From a virus (taxonomy: Duplodnaviria; Caudoviricetes), in IMG/VR virus record IMGVR_UViG_3300047564_001818: DNA of 64,000 bases. One strand, 5' to 3'. Below the pieces are notes generated by a model. The model made no database searches, was not told the origin of the DNA, and saw only the letters and a list, made by a program, of their open reading frames with translations. Both the position numbers and the translations under genes were made by a program. This document shows positions 21,877 to 63,814 of this stretch, in pieces (positions within the stretch are counted from its first letter, which is position 1; every line of letters starts with the position of its first letter).

Positions 21877-24800
21877 TTATCTACGCTTAAAGTGATAGTC
21901 ACCATCAGGTCCATAGTTTGTAAACTGTGCTACTAACTCGAATCCTATGCTGTGCATATATTCAAACACAGTTTCTCTTAGAGGCGCACCTTTGTTATAT
22001 TCAACGCTTTGCAGTTCTAGTATAACATGTTCTACAGTTTCTAATACTTCTTCTGCGCCACGCAGTACATCAAGTTCTGCACCCTGTACATCCATTTTTA
22101 ACAGTTCAGGCTTAGGCAACTGTTTTAATCTATGTACTGCATCCAGTGTTACTGTTTGATAAGTGCGCTTGTGTGTTTCATTAAAGTAAAATGCACTGTT
22201 GGCATTGATGTCACTGTTTTCAATATAATAACTGTTGCCGCCAGGATGCCAATCATTCTGATAGAACTCTACAGTTTTGCCACTCGCATTACTTAATACT
22301 CCTATGTGATAAGGTATACCTTTTTCTTTGTATAGAAATTCACAACTGGGCATTGCTTCGAACGCAACTATATTGCTGTTGGGCCAAATCTGTTCTGCTT
22401 CATTGGTCCAGTGCAGCACACATGCACCTACATCATATATCACACTAGGCTCAAAGCCACTGTCTTTTAAATATTGTAGATAGTCCACATGCTGTTTTGG
22501 CAATAGTCGTTGGTTGCTGAGATCTCTCAATCTATCAGTAATGCTGTTGTCCGCAGCAGGTATTGAATCGTCTACGGTAAACTCACCTTGTCCTATGTGT
22601 CTACACTTAATAGCAGTGTCAGCATAGATCTTAAAACCTTTCTTGAGTGCTTTGGCACAAAAGTCTACGTCTTCGCTGATAGTGTTGGTGTGATTCAATG
22701 CGCTGTGATAAACAAAGTGTGGATAGGGTATTGCTTGAAACACAGACTTTTTGATTAGTACACATCCAAAGCCACAGCCGCCGATGGGCACAAGTCCGCG
22801 GTCTTTGATTTTACCGTAAGGTATGTTGCTAACGCCGCCTCGGTCATTGTTTTCGTATATTTCCAGAGTGTGATGCCCTGGCTTGCGTTGTATGTACAAG
22901 CCGCTGACCACGTCAACGTCATGCGACAGAAATCTTCTCAGAGTGTCTCTTGGTAATACAATATCACTGTCTACACTCAGTAGATAGTCATATCCTTTGA
23001 CTACCCAGTCTGCAATTAGATTTCGTATTTGATCTATGTTATAACCATAGAAGTATTGAAACACTGTCTGATAGCCCTCTGGAACGTCCAGATCGTATAT
23101 ACTCTTGAAGGTTTCCGGTTCTATATACTTGGCTGTGGGTATCGCTATCAGGATCTTTTTTTTTGGTTGATTCATGTTGACAATCTCTCTTGCATTTTTA
23201 TTTTGTTCTGTGCTGTTAACTTTGTAATCATTAAGCGGATTAACGTCATTGTAGTTTACCATTATGTCTTGCACTGCCTGTACACTGTTAGGATCAGCCT
23301 GCTCTATCAATGCATAGAATACACTGCCATCGCCGCCTGCGCCGTACCATTCGCCGTTAGTGTCTTTGAACAGTGTGTCATCTACGCTGTCTATTAGACT
23401 TTTTCTAAATGTTCTTAGATGTGTATAGGGCAGTATCCAGTTGAAATGGTGTGTTCTATATGCTCTTGTTTCTTTAATGTGCTGTGGATATTCCTGTGCT
23501 ATCAAAGGAATGTTATCTGCTATGCTCCAGCAACTGCCATAGGTAAACTCTGCTCCGTCTAGGTATCGATCGTTGTAGTAGTGAAATATGCTGTTGTCAT
23601 TGGTTAAACTGTCGTCGCCATCCAGTAACATGATAATGCTGTCTGTTTCTAAACTTCTAACAGTTTCAATTTGATTTCTCACTGCACCGTAGTGACTAGT
23701 TCTCTTTACAATTTTGAACTTGCTTTGTATATGTTCAGGCAAAGATGCAATAGTCCGTTCTATTACAGCAACGCTTTGATCTGTAGAACAGTCATCAATC
23801 AGCGTGTGTTCCCAGTTGTCATAGTCCTGTGCAGCAACACTGAGTATGTGATTTTCTAAGTAGTGTTCTGCATTATAGAAAGGACTTACAATCTCTATCT
23901 TCTGTTGTGGATAACTGGCTGTGTGCGGCATTTCACAGGGATTGGTATAGCGTCTTTTCCATATCTTGTGTATGCGTTGATTTATTTTTTGTACTGCTCT
24001 GTATTCATCCACAGGTAGATGCTGTTTTAACTTGTAATAGAAATGCTGTTTCCACTGTAGAGCCACTGTGTCCCAACCTACTACGTCTTTTATTATATTA
24101 CAATAGTTTTGTTTTTGTTGATGTAGATATCGATCACAATATGCCTGTACAGTAACAGCAACAAACTTTTCAATCTGTTGTGGCGAGTTAATGTTTGGGA
24201 ACAGATTGTTTGGTACTACAGAATAATCAATCACATAGCAGGCTTCGGCCAGTGCTATTTCTTCTAGTGCTCCAAATCTGCAGGTTATCAACGGTGTGTT
24301 GTAGCAGAGACTTTCCACTGAACTGATACCAAATGTTTCTGGAAACGCACTTGGATAGATCATGAAGCTAGATTGTTGAAGTATGTGTGCAATAGACTTT
24401 TGTGATATAACGCCTGTAAACTCTATGTCCAACTGTTGGTTCACAGGATCATTGGCCATAACATGCCAATCCTGCTCCTGTTGATCAGGAGCACTGCTCT
24501 TGCCAAATCTATAGTATCCGCCTATTATTTTTAGTTTAGCATTGGGCAACTGTTGTTTGACTCTGGGCCAAATTTCTTTTACTAAAGGTACCATGCCTTT
24601 GGTAACACTGGCATTGTATACAAACAGATCAGGGTCTTTGCTTTTTAGATCTGTTTGAGTATCGTAGATGTTAACGCCGTTCCTAGTTATAAAAACTTTG
24701 GGTTTAAGCACTTCGAAGTTGCGTCTTGCACCGTGATCGCAGTTGGTAATGTAGGTTAGATGCCAGTCGCTCAGTGTAAAGATATCTGTGATTCTGTTTT

Positions 24801-25227
24801 CGGTTGCAAGTTTTTCTATCAGCAAATCGCCTAGACAGAAGGTGTCGTGCATCCAAAGTATTCGCAATTTGGCTTTGCTGAGTATTCTGTTGTAGAGATC
24901 AAGCTGTTGAAATGGTGCTGCTCTGTTGTCTCTCAGCTGTGGATAGTCTTTGGGATCTGTGAAAGGTATTACAGTTCTTGAACTGATTACAATATCAAAG
25001 TCCCAGTCCTTGGCTAGATCTCTTGTGGGTCTGTAGACAACACCGTTGTATGTGCCAGGCTGTGTGTCTTCTGAATCACAGTTGTTGAATACTGTTACAC
25101 TAAACCCAAGTTTAGCTAGTTGTTCGCTGGCAAAAGTAACAGCACTTTCTGAGCCACCTAGACCTTGTTTGTATACTGTTGTACCATCATAGGGTATACC
25201 AATGATGTCTATGATTGCGATCTTCAT
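21877..25227 (-). CDS. multi-domain glycosyltransferase (GT-B/GT4 + GT2 + GT-A-like + FkbM methyltransferase)
   Basis: GLGGSE and ETFGISSVE (GT4); IVSPFYN..DDCSTD..LLDGDD (GT2); VDSDIVLP; YDVGA...LKMDVQGAELDVL (FkbM). Confidence 0.85.
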   Translation of the reverse strand: MKIAIIDIIGIPYDGTTVYKQGLGGSESAVTFASEQLAKLGFSVTVFNNCDSEDTQPGTYNGVVYRPTRDLAKDWDFDIVISSRTVIPFTDPKDYPQLRDNRAAPFQQLDLYNRILSKAKLRILWMHDTFCLGDLLIEKLATENRITDIFTLSDWHLTYITNCDHGARRNFEVLKPKVFITRNGVNIYDTQTDLKSKDPDLFVYNASVTKGMVPLVKEIWPRVKQQLPNAKLKIIGGYYRFGKSSAPDQQEQDWHVMANDPVNQQLDIEFTGVISQKSIAHILQQSSFMIYPSAFPETFGISSVESLCYNTPLITCRFGALEEIALAEACYVIDYSVVPNNLFPNINSPQQIEKFVAVTVQAYCDRYLHQQKQNYCNIIKDVVGWDTVALQWKQHFYYKLKQHLPVDEYRAVQKINQRIHKIWKRRYTNPCEMPHTASYPQQKIEIVSPFYNAEHYLENHILSVAAQDYDNWEHTLIDDCSTDQSVAVIERTIASLPEHIQSKFKIVKRTSHYGAVRNQIETVRSLETDSIIMLLDGDDSLTNDNSIFHYYNDRYLDGAEFTYGSCWSIADNIPLIAQEYPQHIKETRAYRTHHFNWILPYTHLRTFRKSLIDSVDDTLFKDTNGEWYGAGGDGSVFYALIEQADPNSVQAVQDIMVNYNDVNPLNDYKVNSTEQNKNAREIVNMNQPKKKILIAIPTAKYIEPETFKSIYDLDVPEGYQTVFQYFYGYNIDQIRNLIADWVVKGYDYLLSVDSDIVLPRDTLRRFLSHDVDVVSGLYIQRKPGHHTLEIYENNDRGGVSNIPYGKIKDRGLVPIGGCGFGCVLIKKSVFQAIPYPHFVYHSALNHTNTISEDVDFCAKALKKGFKIYADTAIKCRHIGQGEFTVDDSIPAADNSITDRLRDLSNQRLLPKQHVDYLQYLKDSGFEPSVIYDVGACVLHWTNEAEQIWPNSNIVAFEAMPSCEFLYKEKGIPYHIGVLSNASGKTVEFYQNDWHPGGNSYYIENSDINANSAFYFNETHKRTYQTVTLDAVHRLKQLPKPELLKMDVQGAELDVLRGAEEVLETVEHVILELQSVEYNKGAPLRETVFEYMHSIGFELVAQFTNYGPDGDYHFKRR

Positions 25228-37418: not shown

Positions 37419-40400
37419 TTAGACTACGCCGCCTGCATCTATGCTGCTAATGCCTCCATAGTTAGAATCAGGTTGGCCGCCATCTAAGTTGCCAAATGAT
37501 CCTGCTGCTGTACTAGATATAACCAATGCTTTAGGATTACTGCTGGTATCAGTTGTAAGAATAATATTATTGCCCGCAACAATTTCTAAAGTATCTAAAC
37601 CTATAGCAATTAAATCTTCTTCGCCATCTACTTTGATAGTTTTGAAGGTGCTGTTCATACCTATTTTAACTGAGCCCGACCCTAGATCTGTTACGTCAAA
37701 CCCGCTATCAGTGTCAAATCTTATAGTTTCAACATTAAGAACAGTGAGTTGTCCTATGTTGTTGTCGCTGTCTATAGTGCCCACAGTTACAGTAGCACCG
37801 CTGCCTGCTTCACCCTTACTGCCAGTGAAACCAATTTCACCTTGTATACCTTGGCTACCGGTGTAACCAATATCACCCCGACTACCGGTGTATCCGATTG
37901 CCGCAGCTTCACCCGGTATGCCTTGTGAACCCACAAAGCCTGTATCACCTTGTGAACCTGTATAACCAAATTCACCTTGACTACCGGTAAATCCAGTAAA
38001 TCCTCTGCTGCCAGTAAATCCAGTTATACCCTGTGAGCCAACAAAGCCTGTATCGCCCTGTGAACCAGTGTATCCAATTGAACCTGTATAACCCTGTTCG
38101 CCTTGTGAACCTACAAAGCCTGTATCACCCTGTGAACCTACAAATCCAACCGATCCTGTAAATCCATTTGAACCTGTGTAACCCGTGTCACCCTGACTAC
38201 CCGTGTAACCTTGAACACCCTGACTACCGGTATATCCAATAGAACCAGTATATCCTATGTCACCTTGACTACCAGTATAACCTTGATCACCTTGACTACC
38301 AGTATAACCAATTTCACCTCTGCTACCTGTGTAACCTTGATCACCTTGACTACCTGTGTAACCTTGATCACCCTGACTACCCGTGTAACCTTGATCACCT
38401 TGACTACCCGTGTAACCTTGATCACCTTGAGATCCCACAAAACCTGTGTCGCCTTGACTACCTGTGTAACCTTGATCACCTTGGCTACCGGTGTATCCAA
38501 TTGAACCAGTGTAACCAATATCACCTTGTGATCCTACAAAGCCTGTATTGCCTTGTGAGCCAGTGTAACCTTGATCACCTTGTGATCCTACAAAGCCTGT
38601 ATTGCCTTGGCTACCTGTAAATCCAACTTCACCTCGACTTCCTGTAAATCCAACTTCACCTCGACTACCGGTATAACCTAGCTCACCTATATTTCTTACA
38701 ATAAAAGTTCCTACCATCGATCCATGGAATTGGCAAATATAGTACAGTATGTTAGGTGCATCCAGCGGCACTGTAAATGTTATTATACCAGAATCTATAC
38801 CATTATTCAGTACGCCATTTGTATATGCATTATTTGTTCCAGTGGTTTGACTTGTTTTAATCCAAAATGGATGTCCTGGTGCGTTAATATTAAAGTAATA
38901 AGTAGTACCTCTTGCTAGAGTAATTGTAGGATTGTTGCTACCTAGAATTGTATAAGCACTAGCACCACTATTAGAAACTGTGTAAGTTACTCCACCAATT
39001 ATACCTTGTGAACCTACAAAGCCTGTATCGCCTCTACTGCCAGTAAAGCCTTGACTACCATTAAATCCAATAGGTCCTTGACTACCTGTAAAACCAAGGT
39101 CACCTCTACTACCTACAAAGCCGCCGCTGCCTCTACTACCTGTAAATCCTACACCCTGGCTACCAGTGTAACCTTGATCACCTCTAGTACCAATATCACC
39201 TTTGCTGCCAGTAAAGCCTCGACTACCAGTAAATCCTACTAATCCCTGAATACCCGGGAAACCTTGTGAACCTGCAAATCCTCTACTACCTGTAAATCCA
39301 GTATCACCTTGATTACCTTGATTACCTTGATTACCTTGAGATCCAGTAAACCCTCTACTGCCAGTATATCCTAAGAATCCTTGTTCACCTTGACTACCAG
39401 TAAAGCCAGTGTCTCCACGGCTACCAGTATAACCATCAGGATCTCCCTTGTCACCTTTTGATCCAGTAAAGCCGATAGATCCTGTGTAACCAATTGCTGC
39501 TGCTTCACCTGGTATACCCTGTGAACCAACAAATCCAGTTAATCCTCTACTGCCTGTAAATCCAGTATCACCTTGTATACCTTGATCACCTTGCTCGCCC
39601 TGACTACCAGTGAAACCAGTACTGCCCTCACTACCAGTGTAACCCAATGCAGCAAACTCACCCGGTATACCTTGAAGACCTTGCGATCCAGTGAATCCTC
39701 TGCTACCATTAAATCCAGTGTCGCCTTGCGAACCAACGTATCCTGTGTCGCCTTGAAGCCCTTGTGATCCAGTATAACCTTGAAGACCTTGGCTACCTGT
39801 AAAACCAGTGTCGCCACGGCTTCCGTCATAACCGGTTACACCCTGACTACCAGTAAAGCCGATAGATCCTGTGTAACCAACGTCACCCTGCGAACCTGTA
39901 TAACCCAATGCAGCAAACTCACCCGGTATACCTTGGCTACCAGTAAAACCAGTGTCGCCTTGTGATCCTACAAAACCAGTGTCGCCTTGTGATCCTGTGT
40001 ATCCTATAAATGCAGCTTCACCTGGTATACCTTGTGGACCTTGTGAACCAGTAAAACCAATTGGTCCTATTTCACCTTGATCACCTGTATTACCTTTTGA
40101 TCCAGTAAAGCCGATAGATCCTGTATAGCCTATTGGGCCTATTTCGCCAGTGTCACCTTGGCTACCAGTATAACCAAGTTCACCTCTACTACCAGTATAA
40201 CCCGTGTCGCCTTGACTGCCCGTAAACCCTAGTTCACCCTGTGACCCTGTAAGTCCTACGGCAGCAAACTCACCTGGTATACCTTGTGAACCAGTATAAC
40301 CCTGTTCACCTTGTGTTCCTTGGTCACCTTTGCTGCCTACAAAACCAGTGTCACCTCTACTGCCAGTAAAGCCTCGACTACCAGTAAATCCAATAGGTCC

Positions 40401-43400
40401 TTGTATACCTTGCACACCTTGTATACCTTGACTACCTGTGTAGCCGCCAGGATCGCCTTTGGACCCAGTAAAGCCTAGAGGTCCTTGGTCACCTTCAAAA
40501 CCTTGGTCACCTTGCGGGCCTCTAGATCCAGTAAATCCGATAGGTCCTAGGTCTCCTTGGTCACCTCGGTCACCCTTACTACCTATAAAGCCTCTGCTGC
40601 CTGTAAATCCAGTATCGCCTTGTATACCTTGATCGCCTCGGTCACCTTTTGATCCAGTGAAGCCAATGCCAGCACTACCTGTAAAACCTACACTACCAAC
40701 GTCGCCTTTGCTGCCTACAAAGCCAGAGTCACCTTTGCTACCTGTAAAGCCTTTTAGATCTGTAAAGACTATAATGCCTGATATGCTTGGATTTTGCACA
40801 CTTTGATAATAGATAAAATCTTGTATATCACCTGGCGCAGTAAACGCTATTGAAGTTCCGCTTAAACCAATTTGACTACCTGCAGGAAATCCTGGAACAA
40901 CATCTGTGCTGTTGTTTAAGTCAAGTCTAAATGCAATTTGGTTGTTGATGCCTAAAGATTCTAAATTAAAGAAATAGCTTTGTCTTTTTACTAATCTCAA
41001 TGAAGGGTTGTTTTCATTAAAGCCAACTACAGTAAAGTTGCTACTGCTGTTTCCAAAAACATATTCTATTCCGCTTTGGCTACCGGTGTAACCAATGCTT
41101 CCAGTATATCCCAAATCACCACGTGATCCTACAAAACCAGTAATACCTCTGCTGCCAGTAAAACCAATTGATCCTGTAAATCCTCTAGGACCTCGACCAC
41201 TGCCGCCAGTGTCTACAAACTGTGTTAGTGTAAAGTTACCACTAACAGTTGTAGGTTTACTGTCTGTTATAAAAACAGTATATGATGACGTGTTGAATGT
41301 TTGAGTAACTGTACCATTCAAAAAGCCTGTTGTAGTGTCAAATGTTAATCCTGCAGGTAAAGTTTCTGGTTCTATTCTGTAGGATAAAGGTGCTGTTCCG
41401 CCTGTTACTAAGATAGGTTGAAATGCGTTTGTTGCATTCAACTCTAATTCATAGCTAGCGTTGTTGTTAACTACACTCAAAAGTTGTGGCGGTGTTTCAA
41501 CAATTTGTAGGTTAAACTGTGCTGTTGCAGTAGTGTTAGCTTCGTCTGTAACAGTCACAGTATAAACTGTGTCTGCACTCAAAATCAATGGCGTATTTTC
41601 GAGTGTTCCATTGCTGTTATAAGTCAAGGAACTAGGTAAACTAGGTGATATTGTATAGGTTAGTACGCCTGCTCCGCCTGTTGCTGTAACTGGTCTAGCA
41701 GCAGGTTCTGTTCCGCCTACTGGTACAAACTGCACTAGAGTAATTGTAGGCGTGTTTACAGTGATATTGATAGCAGCAAATGTTAACACAAGATCAAACT
41801 GTGCTGTTTGCGTTGTAACTAAATCACTTACTGAAATTTCAACTGTATAAGTTCCTGAGCTAGAAGTTGCTCTACCTGTAATTCTACCTGTAGCAGTGTT
41901 AAAACTTAAACCACTGGGTAACTCTGTTACAGAATAAACATAAGCGCCTTCACCTTGAGATGCAATCACAGGAACAAAGTTTGCATTTGTGCCAATCGTT
42001 AAATTAACAGACGAATTAGGAACTGTTAGTGTTAAGGGCGGCGGTACTGCAACAGTTAAACTAAAAACTCCTGTTTGAGTTCTACTAAAACTGTCTTCTA
42101 ATGTTATAGTAAACGTACTGGTTGATAGAGCTTGTGTAGGTGTGCCGCTGATTACACCATTGTTAAAAATTAATCCTGTTGGCAGTGCAGGCGAAACACT
42201 TAATGTTCTAGGTGCTAGACCTCCTGTGCCTGTTGCTACTGGAGACAGATCGGTGATTGCATTGTTTCTAGTTAAATTTATTGTGGGCCTGTTTATAGTT
42301 AATGCTAGTGCAGGATCATTAACGATCAATGTAATTGTAACAGAATCAGTTTGTGGAACAGTAAATGTATCTGTAGCAGTAATAACATATGCTGTGTTGC
42401 TGAGTTCAGTTGGGTTGCCACTGATTACTCCGCTTGCTGTATTAAAAGTTAAACCGTTGGGCAATGCAGGAGATATATTAAATCTAATAACACCGAAACC
42501 TTGACTACCTGGCACTACACGTAATGGAGTAATTGAGCCTGCGGTTCCTCTTGTTAATGTAAAACTAGATTGGTTATCTATCAGCGCAATGTCAAGTGCA
42601 GGAGGATTGACCACATTTAGACTAAATGTTCTAGTATCAGTCTGTCCTTCGCTGTCAGTTACTCTTACAGTAAAACCTGTACTCGATAGCACAGTGTTTA
42701 CAACTCCAGTGATCTGTCCTGCACTGTTTAAAGTTAATCCTGTGGGCAGTCCTGCACTGGCATTGCTGGTTTCAAATACTTCAAAAGTATAAACTCCACT
42801 GCCGCCGGAGGCTGTTGCAGGAATTAACGGTGTTGCTATTGAGATAGTTCTAGTTAGCGTAAAACTATTTTGTGTTTGTGTTAGAACAAGAACACTGTTT
42901 ATTACATTTAATCTAAATTCACTGCTGGTGGTCTGTCCTGCACCATCTGTTACTGTTACTGTGTAATTGGCTGCAACTGCTGTTGCTGTTGGTGTACCAC
43001 TAATAAAACCTGTGTTTGAAAAACTCAGTCCTGCAGGCAGTGCAGGCGATACTGCGTAGGTTAGTGTACCAAATCCGCCAACAGCAACCACAGGTCTAAA
43101 CTGTGTAAATGCTTCGTTAACAGTTAAGCTAGTAAGAGCAGGTGGCACAGGATTAGCTATGCTGGTTAATGCAGGTGCTGCATCTACTCTTAAATTAAAG
43201 GTGCCTGTTAAACTTTGACTAGCACTGTCGCTAACAGTTACAGTATAGGTTGCTTGTGAACTGGTAACAGTAGGTGTACCTGAAATAAAACCTGTGCTGG
43301 TATTGAGGGTTAATCCTGTAGGTAGTGCAGGTGTAATTGCATAGGTTAACGGAGTTTCTCCGCCGTTACCTCTTACTGGTCTTACGCTTTCAAGTGCTAC

Positions 43401-44891
43401 ATTTCTCGTGGCCACAATATTGCTGACTGTAACACTCACAGACAATACCGCAGGCAATACAGTTAAGTTAAAAGTTTTGCTACTGGTTTGGCCAGCAGCA
43501 TCTGTTACTGTGATAGTGTAAGCAGTTTGACTAGATGTAGCAGTTGGTGTACCAAATATTCTGCCATTGGCAGTGTTTAGGCTTAGATCCGCAGGCAATG
43601 CAGGAGATACTGCATAAGTTAGTGTGCCGAAACCACCACTGGCAACTACGGGTGTTACGTCGGCGCTGGTATTTTTTATTAGTTCTACACTAGCAGTTAC
43701 CAGTGTTGTTACAATAGGAACCAACGTATCAACAGTTATATCAATAGGTAAACTTTGTGTACTGGTAGGCGGCGTGTTTGAATCAGTTACAGTAATCGTA
43801 TAAGTTGTTTTAGGATTACTGAAGGTAGGTGTACCTGATAAAACCGCAGTACTGGTATTAAATGTTAATCCAGCAGTTAGTGGAGGACTAATAGCAAATG
43901 TTCTCGTGCCTACACCGCCTGTGGCAGTGACCAGTGTGTTAGATCCTGCATTAACTGACTGTGTAAATGTATAGGTGGCTGTGGTTCTAGTTACCACAAT
44001 AGGCACAGGAGTAACTGTTAATGAAAACTGTCCTGTACCACTATCTAATAGATTATCTCGAACTGTTACAATATAGGTTTGATTGTTTACTACAACTGTA
44101 GGAGTTCCAGTTATTGCGCCTGTACTGCTGTTAATTAACAGTCCAGTTGGTAGTGCAGGAGAAATAGTGTAAACTAGAGGTGCTTCACCACCTGTGCCGA
44201 CCACAGGTGTAAATGCTGTGGCAGCAACGTTTTGATTGAGTATTTTTGTTTCAGTTAGTGTTGTTGCTACTAATAATGGTCTTATACCTGGGTCAACTGT
44301 TAGATTAAATATGATGTTTTGTGTTCTACCAGTAAAATCTTGTACAGTGATTGCATAGGCTTGATTGTTGATTTCTGTGCCTAATTCAGCTGTGCCAGTT
44401 AACCTTAGTGTTGTACTGTTAACTTTAATGCTGAACCCGTTTGCATCTACTATCGTAACAGGGCCATTGTTGACCGCAGTAACGGTTAATCCACTAGGCA
44501 AAGCAGGCGAAACACTGTTAACTCTCAGTGCAACTCTAAATGTATTAGTACCACTTTGCCCTAACCAAGAGCCGCCGCCATAGACTGTAGCAATACTTGT
44601 GCTGTTGGTTATACCTGCTGTGGTACTAATACTGCCTACTGAAGAATTTATAGACAATGCAGGCGCTTGTCCATTTACGTTTGCTGGAGGTACAATAGAA
44701 CTAGTGTCACCTACCCAACTGGTAGTAGTAGTGGTTTGTCTAGTAACAGGATTGAATACTGTACTTTGTCTCCATATTTCAGGATTACCGGTTTGGTCTG
44801 TTTGACGGAAAAGATCATTAAGAACAAGTCTAGTATCTGAAGCAGTACTAGGTCTTTGATTTTTTGTACTATAAAAAATTATATTAGTCAT
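37419..44891 (-). CDS. 2490-aa tail fibre: tandem putative Ig domains + collagen-like repeats + cupredoxin-like insert
   Basis: repeated ISPALPTGL.LN..TG.I.GTPT; long G(F/Y)TGSQG arrays. Confidence 0.85.
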   Translation of the reverse strand: MTNIIFYSTKNQRPSTASDTRLVLNDLFRQTDQTGNPEIWRQSTVFNPVTRQTTTTTSWVGDTSSIVPPANVNGQAPALSINSSVGSISTTAGITNSTSIATVYGGGSWLGQSGTNTFRVALRVNSVSPALPSGLTVTAVNNGPVTIVDANGFSIKVNSTTLRLTGTAELGTEINNQAYAITVQDFTGRTQNIIFNLTVDPGIRPLLVATTLTETKILNQNVAATAFTPVVGTGGEAPLVYTISPALPTGLLINSSTGAITGTPTVVVNNQTYIVTVRDNLLDSGTGQFSLTVTPVPIVVTRTTATYTFTQSVNAGSNTLVTATGGVGTRTFAISPPLTAGLTFNTSTAVLSGTPTFSNPKTTYTITVTDSNTPPTSTQSLPIDITVDTLVPIVTTLVTASVELIKNTSADVTPVVASGGFGTLTYAVSPALPADLSLNTANGRIFGTPTATSSQTAYTITVTDAAGQTSSKTFNLTVLPAVLSVSVTVSNIVATRNVALESVRPVRGNGGETPLTYAITPALPTGLTLNTSTGFISGTPTVTSSQATYTVTVSDSASQSLTGTFNLRVDAAPALTSIANPVPPALTSLTVNEAFTQFRPVVAVGGFGTLTYAVSPALPAGLSFSNTGFISGTPTATAVAANYTVTVTDGAGQTTSSEFRLNVINSVLVLTQTQNSFTLTRTISIATPLIPATASGGSGVYTFEVFETSNASAGLPTGLTLNSAGQITGVVNTVLSSTGFTVRVTDSEGQTDTRTFSLNVVNPPALDIALIDNQSSFTLTRGTAGSITPLRVVPGSQGFGVIRFNISPALPNGLTFNTASGVISGNPTELSNTAYVITATDTFTVPQTDSVTITLIVNDPALALTINRPTINLTRNNAITDLSPVATGTGGLAPRTLSVSPALPTGLIFNNGVISGTPTQALSTSTFTITLEDSFSRTQTGVFSLTVAVPPPLTLTVPNSSVNLTIGTNANFVPVIASQGEGAYVYSVTELPSGLSFNTATGRITGRATSSSGTYTVEISVSDLVTTQTAQFDLVLTFAAINITVNTPTITLVQFVPVGGTEPAARPVTATGGAGVLTYTISPSLPSSLTYNSNGTLENTPLILSADTVYTVTVTDEANTTATAQFNLQIVETPPQLLSVVNNNASYELELNATNAFQPILVTGGTAPLSYRIEPETLPAGLTFDTTTGFLNGTVTQTFNTSSYTVFITDSKPTTVSGNFTLTQFVDTGGSGRGPRGFTGSIGFTGSRGITGFVGSRGDLGYTGSIGYTGSQSGIEYVFGNSSSNFTVVGFNENNPSLRLVKRQSYFFNLESLGINNQIAFRLDLNNSTDVVPGFPAGSQIGLSGTSIAFTAPGDIQDFIYYQSVQNPSISGIIVFTDLKGFTGSKGDSGFVGSKGDVGSVGFTGSAGIGFTGSKGDRGDQGIQGDTGFTGSRGFIGSKGDRGDQGDLGPIGFTGSRGPQGDQGFEGDQGPLGFTGSKGDPGGYTGSQGIQGVQGIQGPIGFTGSRGFTGSRGDTGFVGSKGDQGTQGEQGYTGSQGIPGEFAAVGLTGSQGELGFTGSQGDTGYTGSRGELGYTGSQGDTGEIGPIGYTGSIGFTGSKGNTGDQGEIGPIGFTGSQGPQGIPGEAAFIGYTGSQGDTGFVGSQGDTGFTGSQGIPGEFAALGYTGSQGDVGYTGSIGFTGSQGVTGYDGSRGDTGFTGSQGLQGYTGSQGLQGDTGYVGSQGDTGFNGSRGFTGSQGLQGIPGEFAALGYTGSEGSTGFTGSQGEQGDQGIQGDTGFTGSRGLTGFVGSQGIPGEAAAIGYTGSIGFTGSKGDKGDPDGYTGSRGDTGFTGSQGEQGFLGYTGSRGFTGSQGNQGNQGNQGDTGFTGSRGFAGSQGFPGIQGLVGFTGSRGFTGSKGDIGTRGDQGYTGSQGVGFTGSRGSGGFVGSRGDLGFTGSQGPIGFNGSQGFTGSRGDTGFVGSQGIIGGVTYTVSNSGASAYTILGSNNPTITLARGTTYYFNINAPGHPFWIKTSQTTGTNNAYTNGVLNNGIDSGIITFTVPLDAPNILYYICQFHGSMVGTFIVRNIGELGYTGSRGEVGFTGSRGEVGFTGSQGNTGFVGSQGDQGYTGSQGNTGFVGSQGDIGYTGSIGYTGSQGDQGYTGSQGDTGFVGSQGDQGYTGSQGDQGYTGSQGDQGYTGSQGDQGYTGSRGEIGYTGSQGDQGYTGSQGDIGYTGSIGYTGSQGVQGYTGSQGDTGYTGSNGFTGSVGFVGSQGDTGFVGSQGEQGYTGSIGYTGSQGDTGFVGSQGITGFTGSRGFTGFTGSQGEFGYTGSQGDTGFVGSQGIPGEAAAIGYTGSRGDIGYTGSQGIQGEIGFTGSKGEAGSGATVTVGTIDSDNNIGQLTVLNVETIRFDTDSGFDVTDLGSGSVKIGMNSTFKTIKVDGEEDLIAIGLDTLEIVAGNNIILTTDTSSNPKALVISSTAAGSFGNLDGGQPDSNYGGISSIDAGGVV

Positions 44892-62614: not shown

Positions 62615-63025
62615 ATGTACACCTTTGATGAACAGATTGTATCCGATCTCCACAAAGACGCTCGTGGCTACCGCCCAGATGCATACTTTTGGGAAGAGTG
62701 GAGCCAAACCGGCGACGACACTCGCCAAGCTATGTGGGACAACCTGCTGCAGGAACTGGCCGCTGAGACAGCACGTCAACAGGACGCCTATGCTCGTGCA
62801 GAGATTGAGTTCCATCAGCGTGTGCAAGGCATGATGCTCTCAGGTGCCAAGGACGAACTGACTGCTATCCGTTGGATCCTCGAAGCCGAACAGTTCACCG
62901 AGAACGATTGGGCTTACGGTTCGGACTATGTGGCTTTCCACTTCAACTTGCCCTACAAAGGCCTATTTGATCAGCAGATCCAGACTGTCCTCAACGAGAT
63001 GGAGACCCAGGCTGACCTTGGCTAA
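62615..63025 (+). CDS. early hypothetical protein
   Basis: cassette gene; MYTFDEQIVSDLHKDARGYRP. Confidence 0.85.
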   Translation: MYTFDEQIVSDLHKDARGYRPDAYFWEEWSQTGDDTRQAMWDNLLQELAAETARQQDAYARAEIEFHQRVQGMMLSGAKDELTAIRWILEAEQFTENDWAYGSDYVAFHFNLPYKGLFDQQIQTVLNEMETQADLG

Positions 63026-63154
63026 GTTATTGATAACATTGACAAAAACTTTTTTGTAAGTGCTTGTTTTCTAACAAAACATTTCTCTTGCAATGTGCGC
63101 TGTATAGTGTATAACTGTATTTGTAAGCAACACAGCATATGCGAGGAGCACAAT

Positions 63155-63433
63155 ATGCAAAACACTGTAGCAAATACTAATTACGTTTTTGTAATGCTTG
63201 ATGACGCTACAAACGCAATTGTACTGCGTATTAATAAAACTGTTGACGTTTTTTGCAATAGTGCAAACGACATAATTGCTGCATTTAAACAATATAATAT
63301 TACGGACTGCGACACTATTATGGCGAGCAGCGACGTGGATTTTGCTACGGAGTTTGACTATGCGTACGACAGTGCAGTACACGACATGCTTGACGAAGCT
63401 TTTGACGCACTAAATTTTAAACAATACGTTTAA
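63155..63433 (+). CDS. early protein with no Pro/Gly/Trp (YC-free DNA)
   Basis: GAGGAG RBS, own promoter. Confidence 0.7.
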   Translation: MQNTVANTNYVFVMLDDATNAIVLRINKTVDVFCNSANDIIAAFKQYNITDCDTIMASSDVDFATEFDYAYDSAVHDMLDEAFDALNFKQYV

Positions 63434-63522
63434 AAAAACAGCAGCACACAGCACTTTTTACTTGACAAGTGCTGTGTGCTGTGCTATAAGTTACACATAG
63501 GGCAACACAAGAGGGACTGCAC

Positions 63523-63714
63523 ATGACACGCGAAGAACTGTTTGCTAATATTGCACAAATTGCTGCTGACGCATACGACAACACAGATGCTGACGAAGTG
63601 CAAAGCTGGGATGCATACGAAGCAGCAAAGCAGATTGTTGCTGCAATGCAAGCGTTTGGCTACGACATTGCAGACATGTTGGAGCAAATAGAGGAAGACG
63701 CAGACGAAGCGTAA
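63523..63714 (+). CDS. acidic early protein (YC-free DNA)
   Basis: cassette gene. Confidence 0.75.
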   Translation: MTREELFANIAQIAADAYDNTDADEVQSWDAYEAAKQIVAAMQAFGYDIADMLEQIEEDADEA

Positions 63715-63814
63715 CACAAAAAAAACAGCAGCGCACAGCAACTTAGGGGTTGACAGTTGCTGTGTGCTGTGCTATTGTTAACACATAGGGCAACACAACA
63801 CAAGAGGGACCTCA

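What the first reader, a model, noticed from the sequence alone, without database searches (positions are those of the whole stretch)
63088..63807. ~720 nt with zero CC or TC dinucleotides on the top strand
Seen: reading line by line from 63088 to 63807, every C on the plus strand follows A or G. Dozens of YC would be expected from base composition (rough estimate). TT is abundant, and GA/GG (YC on the other strand) are still present, so the depletion is strand-specific. It spans two genes and their promoters, forces proteins without Pro, and starts just after IHF-like boxes at 63023/63057. Flanking early genes use CC/TC freely. Inference: localised strand-specific C-to-T loss at YC (UV dipyrimidine or TC/CC-preferring deaminase signature), or selection against a YC-targeting DNA-modifying defence or damage in genes that must work first.
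Basis: seen in the sequence. Interest (0 to 1): 0.8.

Follow-up and report, generated by a model that had tools for sequence, protein, structure and literature searches.

The report
Phage early genes banning TC/CC
Two tiny first-expressed genes of an uncultured freshwater giant phage, with their promoters, are written without a single TC or CC on the message strand. Selection has kept this so across diverged relatives, so something in the infected cell must read or attack exactly that two-letter step.

Summary
Plus strand 63087-63810 (724 nt) has no CC or TC, against about 62 expected. The next-longest YC-free run in the 64-kb window is 112 nt. The tract is one early unit: promoter P1, orf1 (92 aa), a hairpin-promoter cassette, orf2 (63 aa), and the next cassette up to the start of orf3.

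- **Not protein composition:** C after a purine is used normally, C after a pyrimidine never, within codons or across codon junctions. Back-translating the same proteins gives 25.7 +/- 4.1 YC.
- **Not C-to-T decay:** there is no CT or TT excess. The cytosines sit behind purines instead.
- **Selection:** relatives differ by 104-267 substitutions over this unit, and none created a YC. orf1 homologues down to about 31% identity lie in or mostly in YC-free runs.
- **All-or-none:** other early and late genes have a YC observed/expected ratio of about 0.75. The ban follows the coding strand.
- **In relatives:** the ban also covers apparently untranscribed DNA and, in one gene, both strands.

My best reading (0.4) is target-site avoidance against a single-hit enzyme that acts on YC in single-stranded sense nucleic acid. 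Rivals are evasion of Rho, whose binding cleft reads 5'-YC (0.25), and the phage's own guanine mark (0.15). This scan noted the same thing in at least seven other giant-phage genomes. I found no published account.

The parts
63087..63810 (+). YC-free tract: no CC or TC on the plus (coding) strand
   Evidence: 0 observed against about 62 expected; the next-longest run in the window is 112 nt.
63042..63143 (+). Stretch also free of GA/GG on the plus strand, so P1 core and the orf1 leader (63087-63143) are clean on both strands
   Evidence: 102-nt GR-free run. The same zone is GR-free in relatives L034 (9888-9989) and L038 (9876-9989).
63023..63035 (-). Single exact match to the IHF consensus WATCAANNNNTTR upstream of P1; significance doubtful
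   Evidence: 9 matches in the window against 4.1 expected.
63088..63115 (+). Promoter P1: TTGCAA, 16-nt spacer, TATAAC, behind an AT-rich upstream stretch. Unlike the other early promoters it has no GA in its -35 box and lacks the shared TAGGGCAAC leader.
   Evidence: Conserved in L034. Two metatranscriptome contigs begin at 63130 and 63139, a weak hint.
63155..63433 (+). orf1, 92 aa, acidic, no Pro; alpha/beta fold of no known family
   Evidence: YC 0 against 24 expected. 32 homologues in freshwater metagenomes. No Pfam, PHROG or fold match. Homologues at 31-46% identity lie in or mostly in YC-free runs.
63439..63481 (.). 16-bp hairpin preceded by A7. On the minus strand it is a canonical intrinsic terminator (stem plus U7). 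On the plus strand it has no U tract. The P2 -35 box lies in its loop.
   Evidence: -28 to -30 kcal/mol, z -4.7 to -5.3. for coordinates.
63462..63490 (+). Promoter P2: TTGACA, 17-nt spacer, TATAAG, followed by the shared early leader (63493-63509) and SD AGAGGGA (63510-63516)
63523..63714 (+). orf2, 63 aa, very acidic three-helix protein, no Pro
   Evidence: YC 0 against 14.8 expected. 37 homologues. Model pLDDT 75. No family match.
63726..63769 (.). Second hairpin of the same design (A8 before it; a minus-strand terminator), with the P3 -35 box in its loop
63750..63778 (+). Promoter P3 (TTGACA, 17-nt spacer, TATTGT) with leader and SD of orf3. The YC-free tract ends in the SD-to-ATG spacer of orf3 (start 63817), which is a normal gene.
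   Evidence: orf3 has YC 16 against 19.3 expected.

Best explanation
The tract is a two-gene immediate-early expression unit (P1-orf1-P2-orf2). Purifying selection keeps its sense strand free of every 5'-YC-3' step, which also means its template strand has no 5'-GR-3'. I read this as target-site avoidance. It resembles restriction-site-free early regions or ACA-less mRNAs, but here at the dinucleotide level.

The proposed agent is an enzyme in the infected cell that cleaves or chemically modifies YC in single-stranded nucleic acid of sense polarity. That target could be the mRNA, or the non-template DNA strand displaced by heavy early transcription. One hit is enough to ruin the gene, so these two genes tolerate no site at all. 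They can then be expressed while the agent is active. Their small acidic products plausibly act against it or act first in takeover.

Shown: the ban is absolute, operates at the nucleotide level, follows the coding strand, is discrete per gene, and is maintained by selection.
For: (1) 0 of about 62 expected YC.

(2) The constraint is on nucleotides, not protein. C3 use in NRY codons is 0.69, against 0.66 in other early genes. In NYY codons it is 0/38 against 0.43. Y3|C1 codon junctions are 0/90 against 18%. Back-translation of the same proteins gives 25.7 +/- 4.1 YC, with a minimum of 11 in 10,000 trials.

(3) Selection: 49-267 substitutions separate the window, L034, L038 and L040 over this unit with no YC created. 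Random placement of the same changes gives 9-42. Diverged orf1 homologues lie in or mostly in YC-free runs.

(4) All-or-none: other early genes have observed/expected 0.77 and late genes 0.73, while the island genes have 0. This is the pattern expected of a one-hit agent rather than a density-dependent one.

(5) The ban follows the coding strand. A minus-strand island gene in L034 and L038 has YC 2/30 and 2/34 on its own coding strand. About 30 genes are purged on the coding strand only, against 1-2 of any other type.

(6) Both arms of the stable hairpins are YC-free. In L034 a 78-nt stretch between two divergent promoters, apparently untranscribed, has YC 0/5.2 and GR 0/5.3. This hints that DNA, not only free RNA, is read.

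(7) Precedents exist for defence enzymes with such short single-strand targets: CmdT at GA in ssRNA (PMC11618068) and DarT2 at TNTC/TCTN in ssDNA (PMC12945103). A TC-free strand contains no DarT2 motif.
Against: - No enzyme with exactly YC (TC and CC) specificity is known in phage defence. DarT2 does not explain the CC ban.
- The host is unknown and no defence gene could be examined.
- orf3 has a nearly identical promoter to orf2 but is not purged, so the explanation needs the extra assumption that only orf1 and orf2 must work under attack.
- A hit on the non-template DNA strand does not obviously stop transcription.
- One relative gene is purged on both strands (L034 12186-12548) and one only of GA/GG (L001 6356-6625). 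Neither follows simply from a sense-strand reader.
- orf1 and orf2 have no recognisable function.
Confidence: 0.4

Rival explanations
1. Rho evasion. Each subunit of termination factor Rho grips nascent RNA through a cleft specific for 5'-YC. A transcript with no YC offers no loading site. The unit would then be transcribed to its end even when translation lags, as in the first moments of infection or after the phage's own translational shut-off.
For: - The specificity matches exactly: TC and CC are banned, while CT, TT, AC and GC are not. The Rho primary binding cleft reads 5'-YC (PMC6144790; PMC13323073).
- The ban follows the coding strand.
- It runs through leaders and intergenic spacers that read-through transcripts would contain. 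The sense-strand hairpins have no U tract.
- In L034 and L001 it starts 110-190 nt before the first island promoter, inside the 3' end of the upstream gene. That is where Rho would load to cause polarity.
- Composition-based escape from Rho is documented for Bacillus genes (PMC13323073).
- From my own knowledge, in T4-type phages Rho-dependent termination is what separates immediate-early from delayed-early transcription.
Against: - Rho loading is probabilistic and depends on the density of several spaced YC (PMC6144790). It therefore predicts graded depletion with tolerance of a few sites. What is seen is an absolute ban that costs the proteins all proline, while every other early gene shows no extra depletion (0.77 against 0.73 in late genes).
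- YC inside stable stems would be invisible to Rho, yet is also absent.
- It does not explain the relatives' gene free of GA/GG as well, the both-strand-clean P1, or the clean untranscribed spacer in L034.
Confidence: 0.25
2. The phage's own DNA mark. Virion DNA carries a modified guanine at GA/GG, for example a 7-deazaguanine as in phage CAjan (from my own knowledge). The first unit transcribed from the incoming genome keeps its template strand, and both strands of promoter P1, free of the motif so that unmodified host RNA polymerase can use it.
For: - A YC-free sense strand means a GR-free template.
- P1 uses TTGCAA, not TTGACA, and is clean on both strands in the window, L034 and L038.
- Some DNA in relatives is clean on both strands, including an apparently untranscribed spacer.
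- The closest large relative (275-kb contig) encodes GTP cyclohydrolase I next to a QueE-like radical-SAM enzyme, plus a QueD. These are the first steps of 7-deazaguanine synthesis.
Against: - No DNA transglycosylase (DpdA/TGT) was found with four profiles (PF01702, phrog_887, phrog_7068, NF041059) in that contig, in four other relatives' contigs, or in the complete PA5oct genome. No QueC was found in the 275-kb contig.
- PA5oct has FolE and QueD without DpdA, so these genes need not serve DNA modification.
- CAjan, whose GA/GGC guanines are known to be modified, has no YC- or GR-free stretch longer than 112 nt. Such a mark does not by itself demand a clean template.
- About 24 other early cassettes in the window use TTGACA and carry GR on the template strand.
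- None of these genes is in the window.
Confidence: 0.15
3. Mutational footprint. Repeated C-to-U deamination (an APOBEC-like TC/CC preference) or UV damage on the exposed non-template strand has simply eroded all YC, without selection for their absence.
For: The dinucleotide set TC plus CC is the classic ssDNA deaminase context, and the non-template strand of strongly transcribed genes is the exposed one (general knowledge).
Against: - There is no YT excess. CT observed/expected is 1.0 in the tract against 1.29 in the flanks, and the C content is kept by placing C after purines.
- orf3, with the same promoter type, is normal, and the boundaries are sharp.
- The ORFs stay intact and conserved through 104-267 substitutions.
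- Leu, which Pro codons would decay into, is low, not high.
- For UV: TT is abundant and the template strand keeps 64 YC.
Confidence: 0.03

Closest known systems
Rho utilisation (rut) sites and the Rho primary binding cleft; composition-based Rho avoidance in Bacillus genes (PMC6144790; PMC13323073)
   Same: The dinucleotide is identical (5'-YC in the transcript). It is strand-specific and acts on coding sequence and leaders alike.
   Different: Known Rho avoidance is a graded, genome-wide purine bias. Here the ban is absolute and limited to two genes, while neighbouring genes are untouched. In relatives it extends to apparently untranscribed DNA and to both strands.
Target-site avoidance in first-entering or first-expressed phage DNA: the restriction-site-free first-step-transfer region of T5, single-orientation EcoP15 sites in T7, and ACA-less mRNAs that survive MazF (from my own knowledge)
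   Same: The logic is the same. The genes that must work before the counter-measure exists carry no target sites, at a cost to coding freedom.
   Different: Those cases avoid 3-6-nt sites. Here a two-letter step is banned on one strand, which removes an amino acid (Pro) and four Ser codons. No agent is known.
Defence enzymes with very short single-strand targets: CmdT (GA in ssRNA, PMC11618068) and DarT2 (TNTC/TCTN in ssDNA, PMC12945103 and references therein)
   Same: They show that dinucleotide-scale, single-hit attack on phage mRNA or ssDNA exists. A TC-free strand contains no DarT2 motif.
   Different: GA is present in the tract (43 copies), so CmdT is not the agent avoided. DarT2 does not account for the CC ban.
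7-deazaguanine DNA modification at GA/GGC in phage CAjan (Queuovirinae)
   Same: GA/GG on the template strand is the complement of the banned step. A relative carries FolE, QueD and a QueE-like gene.
   Different: No DpdA or QueC was found in this clade. CAjan itself shows no motif-free early genes.
Promoter-early-stem-loop (PeSL) cassettes of T4-type phages
   Same: Small early ORFs each have their own strong sigma70 promoter associated with a stem-loop, and their order is shuffled between relatives.
   Different: PeSLs explain the modular layout, not the dinucleotide ban. Here the stems double as terminators against antisense transcription.

Membership tests
Rho-invisible (rut-less) transcript | No 5'-YC dimers available to the Rho primary binding site | tested here: met
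   0 YC in 724 nt.
Rho-invisible (rut-less) transcript | No C>G-rich stretch in the transcript | tested here: inconclusive
   Overall G (165) exceeds C (139) in the tract. C>G bubbles were not mapped window by window.
Rho-invisible (rut-less) transcript | Effect scales with YC density, since termination is probabilistic | tested here: not met
   The pattern is all-or-none. Island genes have 0; all other genes are at 0.73-0.77 observed/expected with no early-gene gradient.
Rho-invisible (rut-less) transcript | Expression depends on Rho activity | not testable with these tools
   Needs reporter assays with bicyclomycin or rho mutants.
Phage 7-deazaguanine DNA modification system | DpdA/TGT-family DNA transglycosylase | tested here: not met
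   No hit with PF01702, phrog_887, phrog_7068 or NF041059 in relatives' contigs (one 275 kb, 77% complete) or in PA5oct. The window's own genome beyond 64 kb could not be searched.
Phage 7-deazaguanine DNA modification system | preQ0/CDG synthesis genes (FolE, QueD, QueE, QueC) | tested here: inconclusive
   FolE, a QueE-like gene and QueD are present in relative G001. QueC is absent. None lies in the window.
Phage 7-deazaguanine DNA modification system | Modified base detected in virion DNA | not testable with these tools
   Needs LC-MS or native long-read data.
ssDNA deaminase or UV mutational footprint | Loss of YC mirrored by a gain of YT (C>T) | tested here: not met
   CT 35 against 34.3 expected. 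AC and GC are enriched instead.
ssDNA deaminase or UV mutational footprint | No dependence on gene identity among equally transcribed neighbours | tested here: not met
   orf3 has the same promoter type and a normal YC count.
PeSL-type early cassette array of T4-type phages | Repeated strong early promoter plus stem-loop flanking small ORFs, with the order shuffled between relatives | tested here: met
   13 cassettes share a leader. Hairpins. Gene order differs in L034, L038 and L001.
DarT2 target avoidance | Absence of TNTC/TCTN on the exposed strand | tested here: met
   It follows from having no TC. However, the CC ban is not required by this motif, so membership is not established.

The most novel reading that the evidence does not exclude
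Freshwater giant phages are under attack by, or themselves deploy, an undescribed enzyme that acts on pyrimidine-C steps (or their GA/GG complement) in single-stranded DNA or RNA. One hit is lethal to a gene. The phages have answered by recoding a small set of immediate-early genes, proteins included, into a restricted dinucleotide alphabet. The recoded genes mark both the enzyme's specificity and the phage's first-line counter-measures.
Probability: 0.4. Interest if true: 0.9.

Novelty: new variant of a known kind. Interest (0 to 1): 0.8.

Why it matters
A complete, strand-specific ban on a two-letter DNA step is among the strongest sequence constraints I know of outside the genetic code. It is kept by selection and is strong enough to delete proline from proteins.

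It gives a precise molecular fingerprint (5'-YC on the sense strand) of an unknown interaction in the first minutes of infection.

It also offers a simple recoding rule for making genes that express under that pressure. Every step is directly testable with recoded reporters.

Tried and rejected
- **Chance or protein composition:** rejected by back-translation and codon-class controls.
- **Assembly artefact:** rejected. An identical contig exists from another sample.
- **One-off hypermutation:** rejected by conservation across relatives.
- **UV-lesion avoidance:** rejected. TT is abundant and the template strand keeps 64 YC.
- **Graded early-gene YC depletion:** not seen.
- **PA5oct as a cultured model:** its 31% GC makes runs of about 240 nt uninformative.
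- **Cultured homologues:** none found for orf1, orf2 or the DNA in INPHARED.
- **Function of orf1 and orf2:** no Pfam, PHROG, PDB, BFVD or Atlas match.
- **DpdA candidate next to FolE in G001 (355 aa):** no similarity to CAjan DpdA or any PDB chain.
- **CRISPR PAM avoidance (CC/TTC), palindromic restriction-site avoidance, McrBC (RmC), primase sites:** considered and rejected by reasoning alone. One-strand depletion leaves the other strand's PAMs. Only 25-44% of palindromes are removed. All remaining C are RC, the worst case for McrBC.
- **RNA evidence:** two metatranscriptome contigs cover only 63130-63303. An RNA library can hold DNA, so this is no proof of transcription.
- **A minus-strand promoter that would explain the both-strand-clean gene of L034 by antisense transcription:** none found.
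- **The 'GR-free only' ORFs:** these are antisense shadows of YC-free genes, not a real class.

Full report
**1.
On the plus strand, 63087-63810 (724 nt) has no CC and no TC. Base composition predicts 27.5 and 34.3. The next-longest YC-free run in the 64-kb window is 112 nt. I scanned all 16 dinucleotides without prior choice. TC and CC are the only outliers, with run length times frequency of 42 and 36 against 14 or less for the rest. GA (43) and GG (21) remain on the same strand, so the template strand still carries 64 YC. The depletion is therefore strand-specific. A contig from another sample (L041) is 100% identical over the shared 3.7 kb, so this is not an assembly artefact.

**2. Anatomy.**
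The window is part of an uncultured freshwater giant phage. It carries ribonucleotide reductase and collagen-like fibre proteins of up to 2490 aa. Relatives lie on contigs of 262-330 kb. The nearest cultured relatives, at only about 40% identity on a marker ATPase, are PA5oct-like and T4-type phages.

From about 55.8 kb onward the plus strand holds small early genes. Each sits behind a near-consensus sigma70 promoter and a shared leader. The tract is one such unit with five elements:
- **Promoter P1 (63088-63115).** It reads TTGCAA-16-TATAAC behind an AT-rich stretch and lacks the shared leader.
- **orf1 (63155-63433, 92 aa).**
- **First hairpin (63439-63481).** It is a 16-bp stem preceded by A7, with the -35 box of promoter P2 in its loop.
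- **orf2 (63523-63714, 63 aa).**
- **Second hairpin of the same design (63726-63769),** carrying the -35 box of P3.

The tract ends in the spacer between the ribosome-binding site and the ATG of orf3. On the minus strand both hairpins are textbook intrinsic terminators, a stem followed by U7-8. On the plus strand they have no U tract. They should therefore stop antisense transcription and let sense transcription run on. L041 shows that the genes after orf2 are ordinary. In this phage the island is just these two genes.

**3. The constraint is on nucleotides, not proteins.**
- In codons ending in a pyrimidine after a purine (NRY), C is used as often as in other early genes (0.69 against 0.66).
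- After a pyrimidine (NYY), C is never used (0/38 against 0.43).
- Codons ending in a pyrimidine are never followed by a C-starting codon (0/90 against 18%). After a purine they are (16/65).
- Ser is encoded only by AGY, and Pro is absent.
- Back-translating the two proteins with the codon usage of neighbouring early genes gives 25.7 +/- 4.1 YC, never fewer than 11 in 10,000 trials.

The ban extends to synonymous sites, codon junctions, leaders, promoter spacers and both arms of the hairpins.

**4. It is not C-to-T decay.**
CT is at expectation (35 against 34.3). TT is only mildly raised. The cytosines are found behind purines instead (AC 75 against 46.9, GC 65 against 32.3).

**5. It is maintained by selection and is a discrete class.**
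- The marker ATPase fetched 32 related loci. Ten non-redundant loci hold plus-strand YC-free runs of 218-1169 nt.
- orf1 homologues at 31-46% identity lie in or mostly in such runs.
- Closer relatives (L034, L038, L040) differ from the window by 104-267 substitutions over this unit, and not one YC arose. Random placement of the same changes would create 21-42.
- Per gene the distribution is bimodal. Island genes have 0-2 YC. All other genes, early or late, sit at 0.73-0.77 of expectation.
- Islands vary from two genes (here) to about eight (L001).

**6. The ban follows the coding strand, but relatives add complications.**
In L034 and L038 a minus-strand island gene is purged of YC on its own coding strand (2/30 and 2/34). 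About 30 genes are purged on the coding strand only. Four observations do not fit a simple sense-strand rule:
- One plus-strand gene of L034/L038 has neither YC (0/41) nor GA/GG (0/32). It consequently has no Shine-Dalgarno sequence, and its promoter has a TTGCAT-type -35 box.
- One gene of L001 is poor in GA/GG but not in YC.
- Promoter P1 is clean on both strands in three relatives.
- A 78-nt stretch between two divergent promoters in L034, apparently untranscribed, has 0/5.2 YC and 0/5.3 GR.

I found no antisense promoter that would explain the both-strand cases.

**7. What reads YC? Three candidates survive.**

(a) *A single-hit enzyme acting on YC in sense-polarity single strands (mRNA or displaced non-template DNA).* This fits the zero tolerance, the strand rule, and partly the DNA-level hints. 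Enzymes with targets this short exist: CmdT at GA in ssRNA and DarT2 at TNTC/TCTN in ssDNA. None with YC specificity is known.

(b) *Rho.* Its primary binding cleft is specific for 5'-YC. This is the only documented reader with exactly this specificity. However, Rho loading depends on the density of several spaced YC. That predicts graded depletion rather than an absolute ban beside untouched neighbours. It also does not explain the cases where both strands are clean.

(c) *The phage's own guanine mark at GA/GG, with a clean template for the first transcription unit.*
- For it, the closest 275-kb relative carries GTP cyclohydrolase I, a QueE-like enzyme and QueD.
- Against it, four profiles found no DpdA-type transglycosylase there or in complete PA5oct, and no QueC was found in that contig.
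- Also against it, CAjan, whose GA/GGC guanines are known to be modified, has no motif-free stretch longer than 112 nt.

I put these at 0.40, 0.25 and 0.15. A purely mutational origin gets 0.03.

**8. The two proteins.**
orf1 models as a small alpha/beta fold (pLDDT 79). orf2 models as a three-helix bundle (pLDDT 75). Both are acidic, both are conserved in freshwater metagenomes (32 and 37 homologues), and neither matches any family or known fold. Two metatranscriptome contigs from different studies cover only 63130-63303 and begin close to the predicted P1 start. This is a weak hint of transcription and no more.

**9. Novelty.**
Full-text searches found no description of YC-free phage genes. 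This scan has noted the same phenomenon in at least seven other giant-phage genomes, with the same three candidate explanations. Here I tested the guanine-mark lead and found it weakened for this clade.

Noticed in passing
window 63439-63481 and 63726-63769: After each island gene sits an A-run plus a 16-bp hairpin. It is a canonical terminator only for the minus strand, and the -35 box of the next plus-strand promoter lies in its loop. In L034 the equivalent hairpins carry the -35 box in their right arm.
   Followed up: partly
L034:12186-12548 (also L038:11917-12270): A 120-aa ORF has no TC, CC, GA or GG at all. Its protein lacks D, E, G, P and W. It has no Shine-Dalgarno sequence, and its promoter uses TTGCAT. 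It lies next to a divergent minus-strand island gene.
   Followed up: partly
L001:6356-6625: A plus-strand island gene shows the reverse pattern: GA/GG nearly absent (3 against 22 expected) while YC is present (17 against 30). It is followed by a bidirectional terminator.
   Followed up: no
L046 (contig of L001, 73.9-77.4 kb) and L051: GTP cyclohydrolase I, a QueE-like radical-SAM enzyme, a HIT-domain protein and a phosphoribosyltransferase are clustered, with QueD elsewhere in the contig. No QueC or DpdA was found. This may be a 7-deazapurine pathway whose product and target are unknown.
   Followed up: partly
L040:7037-10477: A few kb downstream of the island, a relative carries an ADP-ribosylglycohydrolase (PF03747), a HAD-like protein, a zeta-toxin-like kinase and a 690-aa protein with a sigma70 region 1.1 domain.
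   Followed up: no
L041:9259-10224 (about window-equivalent 69.5-70.5 kb); L034:15644-17128: A NodU-type carbamoyltransferase gene sits between the DnaB-like helicase and the primase genes in this clade. In the window's own strain only the N-terminal domain is present.
   Followed up: no
window 63130-63303: In two metatranscriptome runs from different studies, the only contig laid on the 1.7-kb stretch covers the 5' half of orf1 and starts within about 15 nt of the predicted P1 start.
   Followed up: partly
window 37419-44891 (minus strand): A 2490-aa protein with many collagen-like tail-fibre repeats, flanked by further fibre proteins of 711, 1043 and 609 aa.
   Followed up: no
window 21877-25227 (minus strand): A 1116-aa protein combines glycosyltransferase-like and methyltransferase-like domains among the structural genes.
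   Followed up: no
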